The position numbers and the translations under genes are program-made. From the NCBI GenBank assembly GCA_964016885.1, contig OZ024740.1:392212001-392276000 (forward strand): 64,000 bases of DNA, read 5' to 3'. Within the stretch, counting starts at the first letter, position 1, and every line of letters starts with the position of its first letter. The notes beneath the pieces are model-generated. The model worked only from the letters and a program-made list of their open reading frames with translations. It was not told the origin of the DNA and made no database searches. This document shows, piece after piece, positions 7,165 through 55,612 of this stretch. The DNA comes from Eledone cirrhosa (Eukaryota).

Positions 7165-7362
7165 TATGTATGTGTTTGAGTATGTGTATGAGTGTGTGTG
7201 TATATATATATATATATATATGTATATGTATATATGTATATGTATATATGTATGTATGTATATGTATATGTATATATATATATATGTATGTTTATATGTC
7301 TATGTATATATGTATATATATGTATGTATGTATATATATATGTATATATATATATGTATGTG

Positions 7363-7395
<33 letters not shown>

Positions 7396-7428
7396 GTATA
7401 TATATGTATATATATATGTATGTGTATG

Positions 7429-7464
<36 letters not shown>

Positions 7465-7469
7465 TGTAT
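7075..7469. repeat. (TA)n/(TATG)n compound microsatellite
   Basis: Read directly; explains the YI/YM ORFs. Confidence 0.95.
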
Positions 7470-8065
7470 GTTGGTGCTACTGGTAACATGTATCCCAGTA
7501 CAACCTGTCTCATGGTCGGGTCGTTGGCGACTAAACTAGCAACTCCACCAAGGTTTCTTGGTGAGGAGGGTGACTTTGGACATCCTGCAGGACTAAAAAC
7601 AAAACCTGTCAAAGGGCAAAGGAGCTCTTAAGAGTCAATGGCCATCCAAAATCACCGGGAGAGATGACCCCTTAGCCTTTGTCAAGGCAGAATTCTAGGA
7701 GAAGGAAAACTCTGATATAACATCTGCAACCCTGATGGTATCCAATGATTTTGACTTGTTCTTCTTTTTGGTAAATATCATCTTGGTTAAGAGAGTGGGA
7801 CTGGCTTTCTGCAGTGCCTTTGCTCACTATAAAATCTTCACGGCACAGGCATTGCTTTGTATCTGGAGATCTCTCTGCACTTGTCGTCACATGGTACCAA
7901 AGGCAAAGCACTATGTGTCAATAATTGTCACAAGTGTAGTGTTTGTACCAGAGTTTTCAAGTCGCTGGCTGGACTAAAAAGTCACACTCGTTCAGCGCAT
8001 CGGTAGGGGTTCTCCTACATGGATATAAAGTAGTGGCCGTACTCGAAAACGAGTTGGCAGCCACC
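7470..8065 (+). mobile_element. ORF-less ~600-bp interspersed repeat, probably RTE-LINE-derived non-autonomous element (copy 1)
   Basis: Homologous along its length to 9101-9726; contains CTAGGAGAAGGAAAACTCTGA, which I recall from RTE 5' UTRs; flanked by (TA)n. Confidence 0.6.
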
Positions 8066-8110
8066 ATATATATGTATGTATATATATATGTATGTATATA
8101 TATATGTATG

Positions 8111-8141
<31 letters not shown>

Positions 8142-8255
8142 ATATATATATGTTTGTATATATATATATATATATATGTATGTATATATATATATATGTT
8201 TGTATATATATATTATATATATATATGTATGTATATATATATATATGTATGTATA

Positions 8256-8835
8256 ATTATAATGAAATGACAGGAGGCTGGATTTGTGTAAATCCTTGAA
8301 AGGTTTATTATACTATGATCATTTCAATGACCGGGTTCCGTATGAATCCGGTGATATCATCAGGTATTCGAAATATAATACGTGAATGTAATAGATAAAA
8401 TCCATGGGGCTGAAAATCGAGGACCCGAGGGCGACCGCTATTCTGTTCCTTCAACCTCAGCCGGTCGCCCTTCAACCTCCAGGGCGACCGGCTGAGGTTG
8501 AAGGAACAGAATAGCGGTCGCCCTCGGGTCCTCGATTTTCAGCCCCATGGATTTTATCTATTACATTCACGTATTATATTTCGAATACCTGATGATATCA
8601 CCGGATTCATACGGAACCCGGTCATTGAAATGATCATAGTATAATAAACCTTTCAAGGATTTACACAAATCCAGCCTCCTGTCATTTCATTATAATATTT
8701 AACTCCGTAATAGCACCACCAACTACAAAAACAAAGACTTGAACTGCTTTACGTTGAGTACTCTCTATATTATTGCATTATGATTGACCATACGGAATAG
8801 ACCAGCTCTATACAGTGGTGAACCTCAAACCTGAA
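8256..8835 (+). mobile_element. Penelope-like pLTR remnant: ~216-bp inverted repeat (8256-8471 / 8481-8696) plus unique ~140-bp tail
   Basis: Arms read as exact reverse complements around a 9-nt spacer; each arm carries a hammerhead motif followed by AATAAA; embedded in (TA)n. Confidence 0.7.
8585..8642 (+). ncRNA. Type I hammerhead ribozyme motif (mirror copy on - strand at 8310-8367)
   Basis: ATAC-CTGATGA-[stem II with ACCGG/CCGGT and TTC/GAA]-GAAA-TGATCA-TA-GTAT; palindromic stem III ATGATCAT, AUA triplet, then AATAAA. Confidence 0.7.
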
Positions 8836-17707: not shown

Positions 17708-20128
17708 GCAGTATCATGGCACAGCAGTATCATTGTAAATTGCTACAAAGGCAAAGAAGATGCACTAGAGATAAGTAACTACAGAGCTATAAAGTTGATT
17801 GACCAGGTCATGAAAGTTACTGAAAAGGCACAAATAATTAGGGACAGAATCAAGTTAGATGAGATGCAGTTTGGATATATGCCAGACAGAAGTACTACTG
17901 ATCCCCCCTTGATAGTAAGAAATGGCCTTGTTTGATATGTAGTGAGATTGCAGGCAGATTAAACAAAAAGATAGGCTTTTTAATGTGGCAGATGCACAGG
18001 AGAATTAAGCACTAAGAACACATGTAAAGTGGTTGGGGGGACCCTTCAGTTCATGTAAAAAAACACAACTTCTCTGCACTCAATAGGACATTGAACAGTA
18101 GCCCAACTTCAGTACTGACTTGGTCTAGGTAGACTTGTCCAACCCTTGTTAGCAGGGAAAATGGACATACATGCATGCATGCATGTATGTATGTATGTAT
18201 GTAATGTTTGTGTGTATGTATGTACAGAACTGCCTACAGGAATCAAACCACATATCTGTTATATACTGAAACACTAGATTAACCCGACAACTTATCACCA
18301 TCAAATTTAGTAGATCTAAATGTCTAACTGGGCAAACTACAACTGTTTACCTCCACTTGTATCTCACTGGTATGGTAGTGGTTACTGAAGCAGATGTATG
18401 TCTATGTGTATTTATATATATAGTATATGTGTATATATTTTTGCTGTAATGTTTAATGACATGAAACTACAGCAAGTTCAATTTGTGACTGCTGTATGTG
18501 TTTCTGTTACATCTCTTGGCATACATGTATTTCTGGTTTAGCATCAGCTGTTTGAGAATCAGTACTTCTGCAGGTTGTTGTTCTAACTAAATGACTGTAA
18601 AATATTCTTGCTGACATATGTTCAAGAACTTTTTTCTGTCTGCAGACAGTGATATTGTTTGGTTTTGTGATATTGTTTGGTTTTCAGCTAAATATTCCTC
18701 ATCAAAATTAGTTGCGTTTTTGTTTTTTCAGTGAGTAGCCTTCCGTTTGTTTATTGCCTAACACAATTTCACAGTATAAATACAGTGGGGCAATAGAATT
18801 GTGTCAGTGGTCAGGTACTATTAAGAAATGAAATAAAATAAAAGTGAATGTAATGTTACATGTGTGTTTCACCCTTTAGCATTTATATTACTCTATATAT
18901 ACTATTGTATTTTCATGGTAAAGGCTTTACCTCACATAATTATCTCACATAATATTGAATCTACGAGATTTTGATATTATTTATTTTGAGAACAATACCT
19001 TAACATCAGTATGAGTGGCCAATTACAACCGGTTTGAACAGAAAGTGGTGAGAAAATCCTGGCTGGATATGGTCGGTTTAAATGTTAAAGGGTTAAATAC
19101 CTAATATGACTCTTCCATGTTGAATTGTTTCAGTTTCAACATCCAATCTCTTACTCAACAAGAAGTTTTACTTTTGCTGGCATGTCTGACTGTAAAGTTG
19201 AAATCAAAGTCTGGTTATTTTCTTGTCTTTAAAAGAGACAAAATTCATTGTCTGGCTGCTGAAAAATAATAGGAAGACTACAGCCAGTAAAAGTGAAAAT
19301 TATAAGTAAAAAACTCTAATCCTTTATCATATAAAATATATTTAACTCTCCATTTTGTATTGAGTTTTATATTGACTAATGTTTCATTACTGTTTAATAT
19401 GTATATCAATATCTGATACATACCTTTAACATTATGATGTGTGTAAATGTGTGTGTACGTGTATGTATATGTGTACATGTGTGTGGGCATAAATGATGCT
19501 TTATCACTGTAAATGAATAACAACAAATATTTATTGATGAAAAAGCTTGTTCAAACAGTAAGCTATAATACATAATTTGTGGGTGTTTATATGTGAAAAC
19601 TTCTATAAAAGATGTGTATACAGAGGAGAAAACTTGCTTTAATAAGATGAGCTGATAAAAGAAATTTTAGGCTGCTTTCATATAGCAGTAGTAATGGTTG
19701 GGATGTAAATTTTGAAATTGAAGGGATTGTAATTGTATGTTTATTGGGAATTCTATAAATAGTTTTTAAAAGATTCTATAAACAGTATGCAATCAACTTG
19801 GCTGAAATTGTTTTGGGTTTTAGGATATGAGGAACAGATAAAGTAAAGCACCAGTAATGCACTGGGTAATTGCTGGCCTTGTGCCAAAGGTAGAAATAAT
19901 TATTAATTGAGAACTGGTGATCAAGTAATAGTGGGATGGAGATTTAACTGTGGTCAAGGGAGGTGGGTGTAAATGCATGTTTGTGTGTGTATGTGCTTGT
20001 GTGCTCTCATGCCTAACTATGTGTGTATATAAAGGTAGAAATGGTTCTATAAAAGGAATAGTCTAGCTTTAAAAGAAACTGTATGAATGGGAAGGTAATA
20101 TACTTTGCTACATATAACTTAATACATA

Positions 20129-21122
20129 GAATAAAATGGGTAGGTAATATACTTAATAGAGGGAATAAAATGGATAGGTAATATACTTAATAGAGGAAAT
20201 AAAATGGGTAGGTAATATACTTAATAAATGGAATAAAATGGGTAGGTAATATACTTAATAAATGGAATAAAATGGGTAGGTAATATACTTAATAGATGGA
20301 ATAAAATGGGTAGGTAATATACTTAATAAATGGAATAAAATTGGTAGGTAATATACTTAATAGATGGAATAAAATGGGTAGGTAATATACTTAATAAATG
20401 GAATAAAATGGGTAGGTAATATACTTAATAGATGGAATAAAATGGGTAGGTAATATACTTAATAAATGGAATAAAATGGGTAGGTAATATACTTAATAGA
20501 TGGAATAAAATGGGTAGGTAATATACTTAATAAATGGAATAAAATTGGTAGGTAATTTACTTAATAGATGGAATAAAATGGGTAGGTAATATACTTAATA
20601 AATGGAATAAAATTGGTAGGTAATATACTTAATAGATGGAATAAAATGGGTAGGTAATATACTTAATAAATGGAATAAAATGGGTAGGTAATATACTTAA
20701 TAGATGGAATAAAATGGGTAGGTAATATACTTAATAAATGGAATAAAATGGGTAGGTAATATACTTAATAGATGGAATAAAATGGGTAGGTAATATACTT
20801 AATAAATGGAATAAAATTGGTAGGTAATTTACTTAATAGATGGAATAAAATGGGTAGGTAATATACTTAATAAATGGAATAAAATGGGTAGGTAATATAC
20901 TTAATAGAGGGAATAAAATGGGTAGGTAATATACTTAATAGATGGAATAAAATGGGTAGGTAATATACTTAATAGATGGAATAAAATGGGTAGGTAATAT
21001 ACTTAATAGATGGAATAAAATGGGTAGGTAATATATTTAATAGATGGAATAAAATGGGTAGGTAATATACTTAATAGATGGAATAAAATGGGTAGGTAAT
21101 ATACTTAATAGATGGAATAAAA
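20129..21122. repeat. 34-bp minisatellite, ~29 copies (GAATAAAATGGGTAGGTAATATACTTAATAGATG)
   Basis: Period 34 read directly; alternating AGA/AAA variants over much of the array. Confidence 0.95.
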
Positions 21123-21548
21123 TTAAGTATATTAATACTTAATACATGGAGTAAAATATATACAAATAAAACAATAAAGGCCAAGAAAGCAAAACCAACA
21201 AGTAAGGTGTCTTAATAGCAAAGCAATTAAAAATTACGATAAAAATAGAAACCCTTATACATGATTACATATATGTTCATATATATACTCCCATATGTGC
21301 GTATGTGATACACATATATGTAGTCCTAAAAGTTATCTCATTTTTTTTATAAAATAAAAATGATCTAACTGGATTTTTATTATGTATTTACTTGTATTTT
21401 CTTCTGGGTTCACTTTCTATTGCAATTAAATCTTCATTTGTTAGTGTGTGTGTTTTTTATTGAGTGAAAAATTGCTAAAATATTCTAAATTTTTTGCATT
21501 TCTACGATTTCATGCATGTAATTTTTTCTGTTGCTTTACCTTCTGCAG

Positions 21549-40131: not shown

Positions 40132-40171
40132 ACCTATATACATATATATATATATACATATACATATATAC

Positions 40172-40221
<50 letters not shown>

Positions 40222-40378
40222 TGGAATAAATGCTCTGAAATAGCGATATATATGTGAATATAGACATAGAATATTCGAAAATATTCTGTATGTTTATAAT
40301 AAACATTTTGAAGACCTAATCGCTATAGAATAGAATACGTCACGTATTACAATTAGATTCTCGATAAAAGCAAGGGAA

Positions 40379-40421
40379 GTAATCTACGCGTTTCATTCTT
40401 ATTAGAAATCTTCAGGACTAC
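40379..40421 (-). ncRNA. Type I hammerhead ribozyme in array unit 1 (same motif at 40689-40731, 40999-41041, 41309-41351)
   Basis: GTAGTC-CTGAAGA-T.TTCT AATA AGAA.T-GAAAC GC GTA-GATTAC: 6-bp stem I, 4-bp stem II, palindromic ACGCGT stem III, GUA triplet. Confidence 0.85.
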
Positions 40422-41551
40422 ATATCCAGTGCTTTTATCGAGAATGACACAGCTAGAGACTTATAGAATACTTAGCTGTGTACAGAAACTGGTTTGAAAG
40501 AGCGGTTGCCGGTCCGGCAGAAATTAGAAATTGGAATAAATGCTCTGAAATAGCGATATATATGTGAATATAGACATAGAATATTCGAAAATATTCTGTA
40601 TGTTTATAATAAACATTTTGAAGACCTAATCGCTATAGAATAGAATACGTCACGTATTACAATTAGATTCTCGATAAAAGCAAGGGAAGTAATCTACGCG
40701 TTTCATTCTTATTAGAAATCTTCAGGACTACATATCCAGTGCTTTTATCGAGAATGACACAGCTAGAGACTTATAGAATACTTAGCTGTGTACAGAAACT
40801 GGTTTGAAAGAGCGGTTGCCGGTCCGGCAGAAATTAGAAATTGGAATAAATGCTCTGAAATAGCGATATATATGTGAATATAGACATAGAATATTCGAAA
40901 ATATTCTGTATGTTTATAATAAACATTTTGAAGACCTAATCGCTATAGAATAGAATACGTCACGTATTACAATTAGATTCTCGATAAAAGCAAGGGAAGT
41001 AATCTACGCGTTTCATTCTTATTAGAAATCTTCAGGACTACATATCCAGTGCTTTTATCGAGAATGACACAGCTAGAGACTTATAGAATACTTAGCTGTG
41101 TACAGAAACTGGTTTGAAAGAGCGGTTGCCGGTCCGGCAGAAATTAGAAATTGGAATAAATGCTCTGAAATAGCGATATATATGTGAATATAGACATAGA
41201 ATATTCGAAAATATTCTGTATGTTTATAATAAACATTTTGAAGACCTAATCGCTATAGAATAGAATACGTCACGTATTACAATTAGATTCTCGATAAAAG
41301 CAAGGGAAGTAATCTACGCGTTTCATTCTTATTAGAAATCTTCAGGACTACATATCCAGTGCTTTTATCGAGAATGACACAGCTAGAGACTTATAGAATA
41401 CTTAGCTGTGTACAGAAACTGGTTTGAAAGAGCGGTTGCCGGTCCGGCAGAAATTAGAAATTGGAATAAATGCTCTGAAATAGCGATATATATGTTTTTA
41501 AGTATTCTATAAGTCTCTAGCTGTGTCATTCTCGATAAAAGCACTGGATAT

Positions 41552-41594
41552 GTAGTCCTGAAGATTTCTAATAAGAATGAAACGCGTAGATTAC
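41552..41594 (+). ncRNA. Type I hammerhead ribozyme in the inverted partial copy
   Basis: GTAGTCCTGAAGATTTCTAATAAGAATGAAACGCGTAGATTAC on +, enclosed by the 16-bp stem ATTCTCGATAAAAGCA/TGCTTTTATCGAGAAT. Confidence 0.85.
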
Positions 41595-41712
41595 TTCCCT
41601 TGCTTTTATCGAGAATCTAATTGTAATACGTGACGTATTCTATTCTATAGCGATTAGGTCTTCAAAATGTTTATTATAAACATACAGAATATTTTCGAAT
41701 ATTCTATGTCTA

Positions 41713-41758
<46 letters not shown>

Positions 41759-41766
41759 CATACATA

Positions 41767-41884
<118 letters not shown>

Positions 41885-41893
41885 TATATATAT

Positions 41894-42118
41894 AGGAACG
41901 AGTAGGACCCCGACGGCTGAGCTCAAGCCGTTTCGACGGCTAATTCTGGACTAAAAAAAATAAAGTTTTTATTTTTTATTTTTTTAGTCCAGAATTAGCC
42001 GTCGAAACGGCTTGAGCTCAGCCGTCGGGGTCCTACTCGTTCCTATATATACTACCCTAATTATTGAGTACTTTGGTGCGTTATGGTCCATCTGGTTCCT
42101 TACCACATTTCCTTCGTT
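41894..42118 (+). mobile_element. Fold-back element, family B (also 42727-42918, diverged 47632-47730, 61888-62035) carrying only the 3' half of a hammerhead
   Basis: Arms AGGAACGAGTAGGACCCCGACGGCTGAGCTCAAGCCGTTTCGACGGCTAATTCTGGAC and reverse complement; GAAA-CGGCT TGAGCTC AGCCG-TC; shared tail ..TGAGTACTTTGGTGCGTTATGGTCCA..; all within (TA)n. Confidence 0.65.
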
Positions 42119-42164
42119 ACATATATATATATATATATATATACATATATACATATATATATAC

Positions 42165-42681: not shown

Positions 42682-42916
42682 CATATATATATGTATATAT
42701 ACATACATATATATATATATATATATAGGAACCAGTAAGACCCCGACAGCTGAGCTCAAGCCGTTTCGACGGCTAATTCTGGACTGAATTAGCCGTCGAA
42801 ACGGCTTGAGCTCAGCTGTCGGGGTCTTACTGGTTCCTATTACCCACTCTACTACCTCAAGTAATGAGTACTTTGGTGCGTTATGGTCCACCTGGTTCCT
42901 TACCACATTTCCTTCG

Positions 42917-42953
<37 letters not shown>

Positions 42954-45154: not shown

Positions 45155-45947
45155 AATTAATATACTAGAGTGTGTTGGAGTTAAACACCCTCTTCATATT
45201 TTAGAAATGACAGTAAAGGTATAGCTCAATGTAATTAAACAGCCGTCTGTTTTCTTACAACGGTATAGATATTTTTCCAGCACAATTTTTTCAACACAAT
45301 TTAGTTCTGTATGATATTTTTTCTCACCCTGTGTGTAACTTTATATGATTTGTTAAGTTATATGCCAATATATTATAATATTGTTATTTTAGTGTTATTG
45401 TAATATTTATATTGTTTGTGCAAATTGACCGGAGATTATAAATTATATAATTATATAGTATATTATATATTATATGTTTACTTTTACTCATTTCTTTATC
45501 ATTTTATACTGTAAATAATATACGTATTATATTTTTATTTTTATTTTTATTTATATTTAAACTCTTAATAAGTGTTAGTTTATGTTTGTATTGATGGATA
45601 TGTGTATTGATATATATATATATATATGTGTACATATGTATATATATATATATGTATATTGGGCCTTTTAATATTATTATTATTATCATTATCAATTATA
45701 TTATATTATATTATATTATATTATATATAGTACTGTAATTCTCGCTTTATATCACCACTTGTGTTTAGTTTTAGTTTTTGCATTGTACTATATTTGTAAT
45801 ATGGTTCAAAATGTTATTCACTTCCTTAGCAATTTTTACTTGATAATTTTTACTTGATAATTTTCCTATGCTTTAATGTATGTATACTCCTTATTCTTCT
45901 GAGTTTTTGGCTTGTATTGGCCGATAGTGCTTCTTATAGCTTTACTT

Positions 45948-45985
45948 GCCCTGATGAGTCCTTAATAGGACGAAACATTGTTGGC
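45948..45985 (+). ncRNA. Minimal type I hammerhead motif
   Basis: GCC-CTGATGA-GTCC TTAATA GGAC-GAAAC ATT GTT-GGC, immediately followed by AATAAA; canonical core and G-C closed stem II. Confidence 0.8.
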
Positions 45986-46045
45986 TAATAAAGACTTTTG
46001 ATGTATTGAAGGGTTCTTTGGTTTTCATAATATATATATATATAC

Positions 46046-49355: not shown

Positions 49356-49750
49356 CATCATCATCATTTAACGTCCGCTTTTCCTTGCTTGCAAGGGTGA
49401 GACGGGAACTGATTCTGGCTTGATTTCTACAGCTGGATGCCCTTCCTAACACCAACCTCATTTACAGTGAGTGCTGGGTGCTTTTTTTCCGTGGTGCCTA
49501 CTTTACAGTTGTGGGCTGGGTGCTTTTTTGCCGTGGCACCTCCACGACATCTTTGCAGTGGAATGATAGGAACCCCAGTCCTATCATCTCATTTCTACAG
49601 CTGAGTAAACTGGAGCAATGTGAAATAAAGTGTCTTGCTCAAGGAAACAACACATCACCTGGTCTGAGAATTGAACTCACAACCTTTCGATTGTAAGCCC
49701 AATGCTCTAACCACTAAGCCATATGCCTCCTATATACATATACATACATA

Positions 49751-53059: not shown

Positions 53060-55612
53060 TTGTTATTATTGTTGGTGTTGCTGTTGTACTTACTATTGTG
53101 GTCATTGTTGCTGTTGGTGTTGCTGTTGTACTTACTATTGTGGTCATTGTTGCTGTTGGTGGTGTTGTTGTACTTACTATTGTGGTTATTGTTGCTGTTG
53201 GTGGTGTTGTTGTACTTACTATTGTGGTTATTGTTGCTGTTGGTGGTGTTGTTGTACTTACTATTGTGGTCATTGTTGCTGTTGGTGGTGTTGTTGTACT
53301 TACTATTGTGGTCATTGTTGCTGTTGGTGGTGTTGTTGTACTTACTATTGTGGTCATTGTTGTTGTTGGTGGTGTTGTTGTACTTACTATTGTGGTCATT
53401 GTTGCTGTTGGTGGTGTTGTTGTACTTACTATTGTGGTCATTGTCGTTGTTGATGGTGTTGTTGTACTTACTATTGTGGTCATTGTCGTTGTTGGTGGTG
53501 TTGTTGTACTTACTATTGTGGTTATTGTTGCTGTTGGTGGTGTTGTTGTACTTACTATTGTGGTCATTGTTGCTGTTGGTGGTGTTGTTGTACTTACTAT
53601 TGTGGTTATTGTTGCTGTTGGTGGTGTTGTTGTACTTACTATTGTGGTTATTGTTGCTGTTGGTGGTGTTGTTGTACTTACTATTGTGGTTATTGTTGCT
53701 GTTGGTGGTGTTGTTGTACTTACTATTGTGGTTATTGTTGCTGTTGGTGGTGTTGTTGTACTTACTATTGTGGTCATTGTTGCTGTTGGTGGTGTTGTTG
53801 TACTTACTATTGTGGTTATTGTTGCTGTTGGTGGTGTTGTTGTACTTACTATTGTGGTTATTGTTGCTGTTGGTGGTGTTGTTGTACTTACTATTGTGGT
53901 CATTGTTGCTGTTGGTGGTGTTGTTGTACTTACTATTGTGGTCATTGTCGTTGTTGATGGTGTTGTTGTACTTACTATTGTGGTCATTGTCGTTGTTGGT
54001 GGTGTTGTTGTACTTACTATTGTGGTTATTGTTGCTGTTGGTGGTGTTGTTGTACTTACTATTGTGGTTATTGTTGCTGTTGGTGGTGTTGTTGTACTTA
54101 CTATTGTGGTCATTGTTGTTGGTGGTGGTGTTGTTGTACTTACTATTGTGGTTATTGTTGCTGTTGGTGGTGTTGTTGTACTTACTATTGTGGTCATTGT
54201 TGTTGGTGGTGGTGTTGTTGTACTTACTATTGTGGTCATTGTTGTTGGTGGTGGTGTTGTTGTACTTACTATTGTGGTCATTGTTGTTGTTGGTGGTGTT
54301 GTTGTACTTACTATTGTGGTCATTGTTGCTGTTGGTGGTGTTGTTGTACTTACTATTGTGGTTATTGTTGCTGTTGGTGGTGTTGTTGTACTTACTATTG
54401 TGGTCATTGTTGTTGTTGGTGGTGTTGTTGTACTTACTATTGTGGTTATTGTTGCTGTTGGTGGTGTTGTTGTACTTACTATTGTGGTTATTGTTGCTGT
54501 TGGTGGTGTTGTTGTACTTACTATTGTGGTTATTGTTGCTGTTGGTGGTGTTGTTGTACTTACTATTGTGGTCATTGTCGTTGTTGATGGTGTTGTTGTA
54601 CTTATTATTGTGGTTATTGTTGCTGTTGGTGGTGTTGTTGTACTTACTATTGTGGTCATTGTTGCTGTTGATGGTGTTGTTGTACTTACTATTGTGGTCA
54701 TTGTTGCTGTTGGTGGTGTTGTTGTACTTACTATTGTGGTTATTGTTGCTGTTGGTGGTGTTGTTGTACTTACTATTGTGGTCATTGTTGCTGTTGGTGT
54801 TGTTGTTGTACTTACTATTGTGGTTATTGTTGCTGTTGGTGGTGTTGTTGTACTTACTATTGTGGTTATTGTTGCTGTTGGTGGTGTTGTTGTACTTACT
54901 ATTGTGGTTATTGTTGCTGTTGGTGGTGTTGTTGTACTTACTATTGTGGTTATTGTTGCTGTTGGTGGTGTTGTTGTACTTACTATTGTGGTCATTGTTG
55001 CTGTTGATGGTGTTGTTGTACTTACTATTGTGGTTATTGTCGTTGTTGATGGTGTTGTTGTACTTATTATTGTGGTCATTGTTGCTGTTGGTGGTGTTGT
55101 TGTACTTACTATTGTGGTCATTGTTGCTGTTGGTGGTGTTGTTGTACTTACTATTGTGGTTATTGTTGCTGTTGGTGGTGTTGTTGTACTTACTATTGTG
55201 GTTATTGTTGTTGTTGGTGGTGTTGTTGTACTTACTATTGTGGTTATTGTTGCTGTTGGTGGTGTTGTTGTACTTACTATTGTGGTTATTGTTGCTGTTG
55301 GTGGTGTTGTTGTACTTGCTATTGTGGTCATTGTTGTTGTTGGTTGTGTTGTTGTACTTACTATTGTGGTCATTGTTGTTGTTGGTGGTGTTGTTGTACT
55401 TGCTATTGTGGTCATTGTTGTTGTTGGTTGTGTTGTTGTACTTACTATTGTGGTTATTGTTGCTGTTGGTTGTGTTGTTGTACTTACTATTGTGGTTATT
55501 GTTGTTGTTGGTGGTGTTGTTGTACTTGCTATTGTGGTCATTGTTGTTGTTGGTTGTGTTGTTGTACTTACTATTGTGGTCATTGGTGTTGTTGTTGTAC
55601 TTACTATTGTGA
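53060..55612. repeat. 42-bp minisatellite, ~60 copies (GTTGCTGTTGGTGGTGTTGTTGTACTTACTATTGTGGTCATT)
   Basis: 14-codon periodicity in the long frames (TTIVSTTTPPTATM). Confidence 0.95.

What the first reader, a model, noticed from the sequence alone, without database searches (positions are those of the whole stretch)
41461..41716. Inverted partial copy and 36-nt tail give the array Penelope-type insertion geometry
Seen: at the 5' end of the ribozyme-sense strand the array flips into an inverted copy covering unit offsets ~37-254. The opposite end of the array runs 36 nt further (40221-40256). Established (from memory): Penelope-like element insertions often show an inverted 5'-truncated pLTR and a short unpaired 3' tail. 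Inference: a Penelope-type RT copied a multimeric or circular template, linking this array to PLE machinery. Any read-through transcript would also fold into ~218 bp of dsRNA.
Basis: partly seen in the sequence, partly recalled or inferred. Interest (0 to 1): 0.7.

Follow-up and report, generated by a model that had tools for sequence, protein, structure and literature searches.

The report
Ribozyme circle copied from both nicks
This is one of more than a thousand young, two-armed, mirror-image insertions of a 310-letter non-coding repeat with a predicted self-cutting RNA fold. Their fixed, lopsided ends match Penelope-like jumping genes, whose enzyme likely copied one RNA circle from both ends of a DNA cut, a route proposed before but with little direct genomic evidence in the papers found.

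Summary
The array is 4 x 310 nt + 36 nt at 100% identity (40220-41495), followed by a 3-nt filler and a 218-nt inverted copy (41499-41716), inside a (TA)n run. Each unit carries a minimal type I hammerhead. The layout is the family rule. Of 78 assessable loci chosen only by their tail end, 75 are inverted, each with one long (tail) end and one short end at the unit's (AT)4 tract. Inner joints are scattered. Both arms carry the same haplotype in 58 of 61 loci, against 10-12% between loci. This fits a Penelope-like RT/GIY-YIG priming both target strands at two internal sites of one RNA, most likely a monomer circle. Against: a few loci point to multi-unit templates, long arrays also expanded as DNA, no autonomous partner sharing sequence was found (weak Hydra-clade lead), and no RNA data were available. 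The class (animal non-LTR retrozymes) and its link to Penelope elements are in print. The scan already found this same family at other loci of this genome. Verdict: a new member of a known kind, with useful mechanistic evidence.

The parts
40135..40219 (.). left (TA)n target microsatellite
   Evidence: shares its interruption strand with the right flank
40220..40256 (-). 36-37 nt tail: the stretch between the two fixed outer end points (unit offsets 1-37)
   Evidence: the same end occurs 1,051 times in G000
40220..41495 (-). tail arm: 4 identical 310-nt units + 36 nt; ribozyme-sense on the - strand
40246..40253 (+). (AT)4 tract of the unit (offsets 27-34), inferred annealing site of the second target primer
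   Evidence: the short arm ends here in 75 of 75 inverted loci; terminal-unit-only mismatches
40379..40421 (-). minimal type I hammerhead, unit 1; palindromic loop III; predicted cut between 40385 and 40384
   Evidence: stem covariation in sister families; no Rfam match at gathering score
40507..40519 (-). G+C hairpin just beyond the tail start site (offsets 288-300), repeated in each unit
40689..40731 (-). hammerhead, unit 2
40999..41041 (-). hammerhead, unit 3
41309..41351 (-). hammerhead, unit 4 (would be paired by the inverted arm in a read-through RNA)
41460..41495 (-). 36-nt partial fifth unit; inner end of the tail arm, at offset 36
41496..41498 (.). 3-nt filler at the joint of the two arms
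41499..41716 (+). short arm: inverted copy of offsets 255 to 38; ribozyme-sense on the + strand
41552..41594 (+). hammerhead in the inverted arm
41717..41894 (.). right (TA)n target; its first 11 nt line up with offsets 37-27 with two mismatches, as an annealed (TA)n primer would

Best explanation
This is a single young insertion of a non-coding, hammerhead-bearing 310-nt repeat (a retrozyme), likely pasted in by a Penelope-like RT/GIY-YIG protein acting in trans, which likely copied one RNA molecule, most likely a monomer circle, from both ends of a cut in a (TA)n run. Steps: (1, inferred) arrays are transcribed, cut by dimeric hammerheads and ligated into 310-nt circles. (2, inferred; flank data fit) the PLE protein cuts a pre-existing (TA)n. 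(3, end points shown, priming inferred) one target 3' end starts at offset 1 or 304-306 with only a few nt of homology; the other anneals to the (AU)4 tract at offsets 27-37; the 36-nt tail is simply the distance between the two starts. (4, inferred) both RTs run round the template for a variable distance. (5, joints shown, pathway inferred) the two cDNA ends are joined through 0-5 nt of microhomology or a short filler, giving a head-to-head pair of arms. Long arms later expand further as DNA (shown at the longest locus).
For: Geometry: 75 of 80 loci chosen only by a tail end are inverted (3 not inverted, 2 end in assembly gaps). 32 of 33 loci chosen by identity are inverted (1 at a contig start). 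One end of each kind per insertion: short end at the (AT)4 tract in 75 of 75, and 0 tail-tail pairs among 81 listed tail ends. Primer scars: mismatches at offsets 35, 37 and nearby occur only in the outermost short-arm unit. Target pre-exists: left and right flanks share interruption strand in 12 of 12 informative loci. One template per event: both arms have the same haplotype in 41 of 44 loci (cross-locus 193 of 1,892; 20 haplotypes) and in 17 of 17 held-out loci (cross-locus 34 of 272). 21 variants are private to one locus yet fixed in all covered units of both arms (17 of 106 loci). Minor variants are rarely shared in register between arms (14 of 117, from 2 of 84 loci). Arms run through the ribozyme cut site: 51 of 54 tail arms are longer than a cut linear monomer allows, and joints are not enriched at the cut (5 of 108 vs 4.5 expected). 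RNA-level constraint: fold z -5.8; 22 of 77 pairs change on both sides across 8 sister-family units. Intact PLE ORFs exist in G000, and one autonomous family shows the same two-end layout in (TA)n (L087, L088). PMC11167929: a purified PLE protein cuts and extends both strands and starts at two internal sites that bound the tail.
Against: L166 switches haplotype after unit 2 in both arms, and L147 shares a variant in register. L138 and L174 differ between arms. These need a multi-unit RNA, a template switch or later conversion. The 45-unit arm at L151/L242 carries repeated variant blocks, so length is partly DNA-level duplication. The arm-length correlation (rho 0.36, p 0.007, n 54) was not significant in 20 held-out loci (rho 0.29, p 0.22). 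No autonomous PLE with a matching pLTR or tail was found in about 1.76 Mb of fetched DNA. PMC11167929 found that uncut RNA was the main substrate in vitro and saw no reads ending at the hammerhead cut. The covariation count uses a structure derived from the same alignment.
Confidence: 0.7

Rival explanations
1. Same PLE-driven double priming, but the template is an uncut linear multimer transcribed from an existing homogeneous array. Circles are by-products, and arrays are homogenised or lengthened as DNA.
For: L166 and L147 show in-register sharing between arms; in L138 the short arm matches only the inner units of the tail arm. DNA-level block duplication is real. The hammerhead is minimal and may cut poorly (PMC4209133 passages). 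Uncut RNA is the main substrate for a PLE in vitro.
Against: It needs many separate homogeneous source arrays (20 haplotypes in 44 loci; 21 private fixed variants), each of which needed a monomer bottleneck. Unit-specific variants are common in arrays (52 in 533 units) but are almost never passed to both arms.
Confidence: 0.2
2. L1-type twin priming (mechanism recalled, not read here): the first cDNA stops where the second primer anneals on the same linear RNA.
For: In this window the tail arm ends at offset 36 and the short arm begins at 38. Tail-arm joints at offsets 27-43 are 7 of 54 against 3.0 expected (p 0.03).
Against: 47 of 54 tail arms end elsewhere. The excess is one of three windows tested and may reflect AT microhomology. 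There is no poly(A) end, and the second site is fixed.
Confidence: 0.06
3. A satellite amplified purely as DNA, with local fold-back inversions.
For: Long arrays do duplicate as DNA.
Against: More than 1,000 dispersed loci share two fixed outer ends in (TA)n, with one end of each kind, primer-type scars, and a compensated RNA fold with a ribozyme.
Confidence: 0.02

Closest known systems
Animal non-LTR retrozymes (Cervera and de la Pena 2020, PMC7229834; Li, Clavereau, Pollet 2026, bioRxiv 10.64898/2026.07.22.740005)
   Same: ORF-less tandem units of 170-400 nt, one type I hammerhead per unit. Circles copied by an RT into tandem cDNA, with PLEs as the candidate carrier, are proposed there.
   Different: In what I read (passages and Discussion of the first; parts 1-3 of 5 plus a word search of the second) neither describes an inverted second arm, a tail, fixed ends or single-haplotype arms. 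Li et al. favour local amplification of a pLTR and find pLTR homology for 24 of 57 Xenopus families; here no such parent was found. Their supplements were not seen.
Insertions of EN+ Penelope-like elements (Arkhipova 2013, PMC3846280; Craig 2021, PMC8557442), including the Hydra clade
   Same: Head-to-head inverted copy, a 30-40 nt tail at one end, (TA)n targets, and a hammerhead upstream of the ends. pLTR sequences act in trans, and non-autonomous multicopy head-to-tail elements are noted for Chlamys.
   Different: No RT/EN ORF. Both arms are usually multimers. The inversion is near-obligatory (75 of 78). Those papers ascribe the tail to EN resolution and the inversions to self-priming.
Anolis Poseidon PAc in vitro (Frangieh 2024, PMC11167929)
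   Same: Cuts AT-rich DNA, extends both strands, and starts at two internal RNA sites that bound the tail.
   Different: The paper saw no strand difference in start site and no homology to the target. Here each insertion uses one site per end, and the second site pairs with the (TA)n target. Circles were not tested there.
L1 twin priming (recalled)
   Same: Two target-primed cDNAs joined head to head through microhomology.
   Different: Both starts are internal and fixed, and the first arm rarely stops at the second start.

Membership tests
Animal non-LTR retrozyme | tandem units of about 170-400 nt | tested here: met
   310 nt, 4.1 copies
Animal non-LTR retrozyme | type I hammerhead in every unit | tested here: met
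   core and stems read in all 4 units plus the inverted arm; stems I and II compensated in sister families; Rfam gave no match at gathering score
Animal non-LTR retrozyme | no protein-coding capacity | tested here: met
   no open frame of 200 aa or more over 40220-41716
Animal non-LTR retrozyme | self-cleavage of the transcript | not testable with these tools
   needs in vitro transcription
Animal non-LTR retrozyme | expressed as monomeric circular RNA | not testable with these tools
   no RNA reads were available
PLE-type insertion | inverted 5'-truncated copy next to the 5' end | tested here: met
   75 of 78 assessable loci
PLE-type insertion | 30-40 nt tail at one end only | tested here: met
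   36-37 nt here; about 43-45 nt in 9 of 32 loci; 0 tail-tail pairs
PLE-type insertion | AT-rich or (TA)n target | tested here: met
   both flanks are alternating runs of 14 nt or more in 67 of 71 loci
PLE-type insertion | target-site duplication | tested here: inconclusive
   cannot be read inside (TA)n; the flanks share strand bias in 12 of 12 informative loci
Autonomous PLE | RT + GIY-YIG ORF between pLTRs | tested here: not met
   no PLE ORF is joined to a family member
Derivative of a named PLE family | unit homologous to the pLTR of an autonomous element | tested here: inconclusive
   none for the 1,217-aa and 714-aa families or other ORF ends; a 7.9-bit collinear match to the repeat after a Hydra-type EN fragment in L050, reached by 0 of 500 shuffles
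L1-type twin priming | first arm ends at the second primer site | tested here: not met
   true in this window, but only 7 of 54 other loci

The most novel reading that the evidence does not exclude
A Penelope-type RT dimer docks on a single 310-nt ribozyme RNA circle and rolls round it from both DNA ends at once, one subunit per fixed start site. Each insertion is therefore a clonal record of one RNA molecule, and A-to-I edits made in that circle are written into every unit of the new array (RNA-sense A>G is 13 of 44 fixed variants against 16 of 158 single-unit variants, p 0.003). The family would be a viroid-like RNA lineage that evolves partly through RNA editing and is archived in the host genome.
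Probability: 0.25. Interest if true: 0.8.

Novelty: new member of a known kind. Interest (0 to 1): 0.5.

Why it matters
How PLEs make their inverted copies and tails, and what moves animal retrozymes, are open questions in the papers read. This family has more than 1,000 young insertions with scorable ends, joints and haplotypes. It ties retrozymes to PLE machinery by insertion scars rather than by homology alone. It gives a strict rule (one start site per DNA end) that refines the in vitro result. It also names a 310-nt substrate and two start sites for a direct test of rolling-circle target-primed reverse transcription. The class and the hypothesis are not new.

Tried and rejected
Search for an autonomous partner: 20 sister-family loci, 18 single-motif loci, 12 loci with long or intact ORFs from two PLE families, a profile search and ORF-adjacency test over about 1.76 Mb, and a family that shares only hammerhead stem II. 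None was found; the genome was not searched exhaustively. Joints at the ribozyme cut site: no excess after exact mapping; an apparent excess near offset 180 was a variant artefact. Telomerase-like reiteration of the AT tract to build the flanks: rejected (short flank 6 vs 12, p 0.24; same genome-strand bias in 12 of 12). Search for a parent of the chimeric L166 array: uninformative (0 candidates), so its origin stays open. Expression: no RNA holder listed. Laying four runs showed only contigs and 0 raw reads; no conclusion. A-to-I reading: 9 of 13 A>G sit in predicted stems, so selection for G-U pairs explains them equally well; the 5'-U context (7 of 13 vs 36 of 92) is not enriched; the 20 held-out loci added only 3 new fixed variants, one of them A>G. 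Pfam named only one GIY-YIG domain and one weak RT hit, so PLE clade labels rest on motifs read against PMC8557442. Rfam found only a tRNA-like hit elsewhere in the window. Rows dropped before counts: the duplicated L039 first copy, L049 (contig start), L051 and L061, and offsets 25-45 in the variant tallies (end effects).

Full report
Observation. The window holds 4 identical 310-nt units plus 36 nt (40220-41495), a 3-nt filler, and a perfect 218-nt inverted copy of offsets 255 to 38 (41499-41716), between (TA)n runs. The far end runs 36-37 nt past the point where the inverted arm stops. On the - strand each unit has a minimal type I hammerhead with a palindromic loop III, the form that PMC4209133 describes as dimer-dependent (passages); the predicted cut lies between offsets 166 and 165. 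The unit folds well (z -5.8; as a circle z -3.8 over 60 shuffles). A read-through would form a 218-bp stem with a 94-nt loop. There is no long ORF.

Family. G000 is a 3.0-Gb genome; its repeats remind me of octopods, which is recall and was not tested. A 17-mer of the tail occurs 24,477 times, control 0. It is shared with older sister families of 311-315 nt that align over the whole unit and show the same layout. Across 8 units, 22 of 77 pairs change on both sides and 0 of 500 shuffles reach that, though the structure came from the same alignment. Exact (TA)-flanked ends of the young family number 1,051 (tail) and 1,254 (short).

Geometry. Of 33 loci chosen by identity, 32 are inverted and one lies at a contig start. 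I then took 80 of the first 87 tail ends listed on contig C1, leaving out 7 already held or inside another stretch. Of these, 75 are inverted, 3 are not and 2 end in assembly gaps. All 75 short arms end at the (AT)4 tract. No tail-tail pair occurs among 81 listed tail ends. The tail end is at offset 1-2 or, in 9 of 32 identity-chosen loci, at 303-306. The outermost short-arm unit alone carries mismatches such as 35G>A and 37G>A, as expected if a (TA)n primer annealed there. Inner joints are scattered: microhomology in 35, blunt in 8 and filler in 11 of 54. There is no excess at the ribozyme cut (5 of 108 vs 4.5) and a weak one at offsets 27-43 (12 of 108 vs 5.9). Both arms exceed one unit in 44 of 54. 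The flanks share interruption strand in 12 of 12 informative loci, so a pre-existing microsatellite was split.

Template. Both arms have the same haplotype in 41 of 44 loci, against 193 of 1,892 cross-locus pairs, with 20 haplotypes. In held-out loci the figures are 17 of 17 and 34 of 272. In 106 loci, 21 variants are private to one locus yet fixed in both arms. Minor variants are shared in register between arms in only 14 of 117 cases, all from L166 and L147. Each insertion therefore usually passes through one monomer sequence, which is most simply a circle. Exceptions: L166 switches haplotype after unit 2 in both arms; L138 and L174 differ between arms; and the 45-unit arm of L151/L242 has repeated variant blocks that show later DNA duplication. 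This window's own units are all identical, so it does not discriminate by itself. Fixed variants are rich in RNA-sense A>G (13 of 44 vs 16 of 158 singletons, p 0.003). That fits A-to-I editing of the template or selection for G-U pairs; I cannot separate the two.

Carrier. G000 has PLE families with intact ORFs of 1,217, 714 and 887 aa, often in head-to-head pairs. The 1,217-aa family has a hammerhead-like motif and two end points about 47-59 nt apart in (TA)n. The 714-aa protein has the RWK, DKT and CxCX5C motifs that PMC8557442 gives for the (TA)n-targeting Hydra clade. No autonomous element sharing the unit was found. The only lead is a weak collinear match (7.9 bits) to the repeat that follows a Hydra-type EN fragment in L050.

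Mechanism. Shown: two fixed outer ends, one of each kind per insertion, variable joints, a split (TA)n target and one haplotype per event. Inferred: PLE protein in trans (about 0.9), priming of both target ends on one RNA, and a monomer circle as the usual template (about 0.7). Untested: expression, self-cleavage, circles and dsRNA.

What is known. PMC7229834 (passages and Discussion) defines animal retrozymes and proposes circles copied into tandem cDNA by PLEs. bioRxiv 10.64898/2026.07.22.740005 (parts 1-3 of 5 and a word search) argues PLE origin by homology; its text has no occurrence of 'tail' or 'haplotype' and no description of inverted arms. PMC3846280 (passages) and PMC8557442 (passages and section 11) describe inverted pLTRs and tails. 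PMC11167929 (parts 1-2 of 4) shows both-strand extension and two internal starts. Seven searches listed no paper that reports PLE scars or single-template arms in retrozyme arrays. The library lacks most subscription papers, and supplements (the model figure of PMC7229834, all files of the preprint) were not seen and may bear on this. Earlier notes of this scan describe the same family and reading at other loci of G000; they are not independent support.

Verdict. It is a new member of a known kind, with mechanistic evidence that makes the rolling-circle model directly testable. Interest 0.5.

Noticed in passing
window 41895-42119 and 42728-42919: Two copies of another short fold-back element with a longer one-sided extension, between (TA)n runs; also seen in L110, L203, L209. 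Same PLE-type layout, different sequence.
   Followed up: no
window 45946-45987: Canonical-looking hammerhead core on the + strand, part of another repeat also seen in L111.
   Followed up: no
window 53070-55594: 42-nt tandem repeat, 60 copies at 96% identity, open in several frames; a Thr-rich mucin-like reading of about 880 aa on the - strand.
   Followed up: no
window 20112-21157: 34-nt minisatellite, about 31 copies.
   Followed up: no
window 49664-49721: tRNA-like Rfam hit, probably the head of a SINE.
   Followed up: no
L166 (G000:C1:136719500-136725900): Both arms switch from one haplotype to another after the second unit: a multi-unit template, a joint template switch or conversion.
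   Followed up: partly
L044:1-2600, L096:4800-8600, L103:4300-5600, L050:7200-9600: Other hammerhead repeats with units of about 466 nt; in L050 one directly follows a Hydra-type endonuclease fragment.
   Followed up: partly
L200-L229, L103, L123: A short family that shares hammerhead stem II with this unit; many copies fold back right at the 5' edge of the ribozyme, and some extend 600 nt or more without an ORF.
   Followed up: partly
L125:1367-1603, L036:2100-2700, L076:6000-6350: Divergent relatives of the unit (profile E 4e-11 to 0.16), suggesting an old and diverse superfamily.
   Followed up: no
window 40256-40565: Twenty public runs under 18 organism labels hold half or more of the unit's words; two that were laid show one 340-nt contig of the commonest haplotype. 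Contamination by a high-copy repeat seems likelier than transfer; unresolved.
   Followed up: partly
L039:4440-5691 and 7194-8752: The same insertion appears twice, 3 kb apart, beside an assembly gap; probably an assembly duplicate.
   Followed up: no
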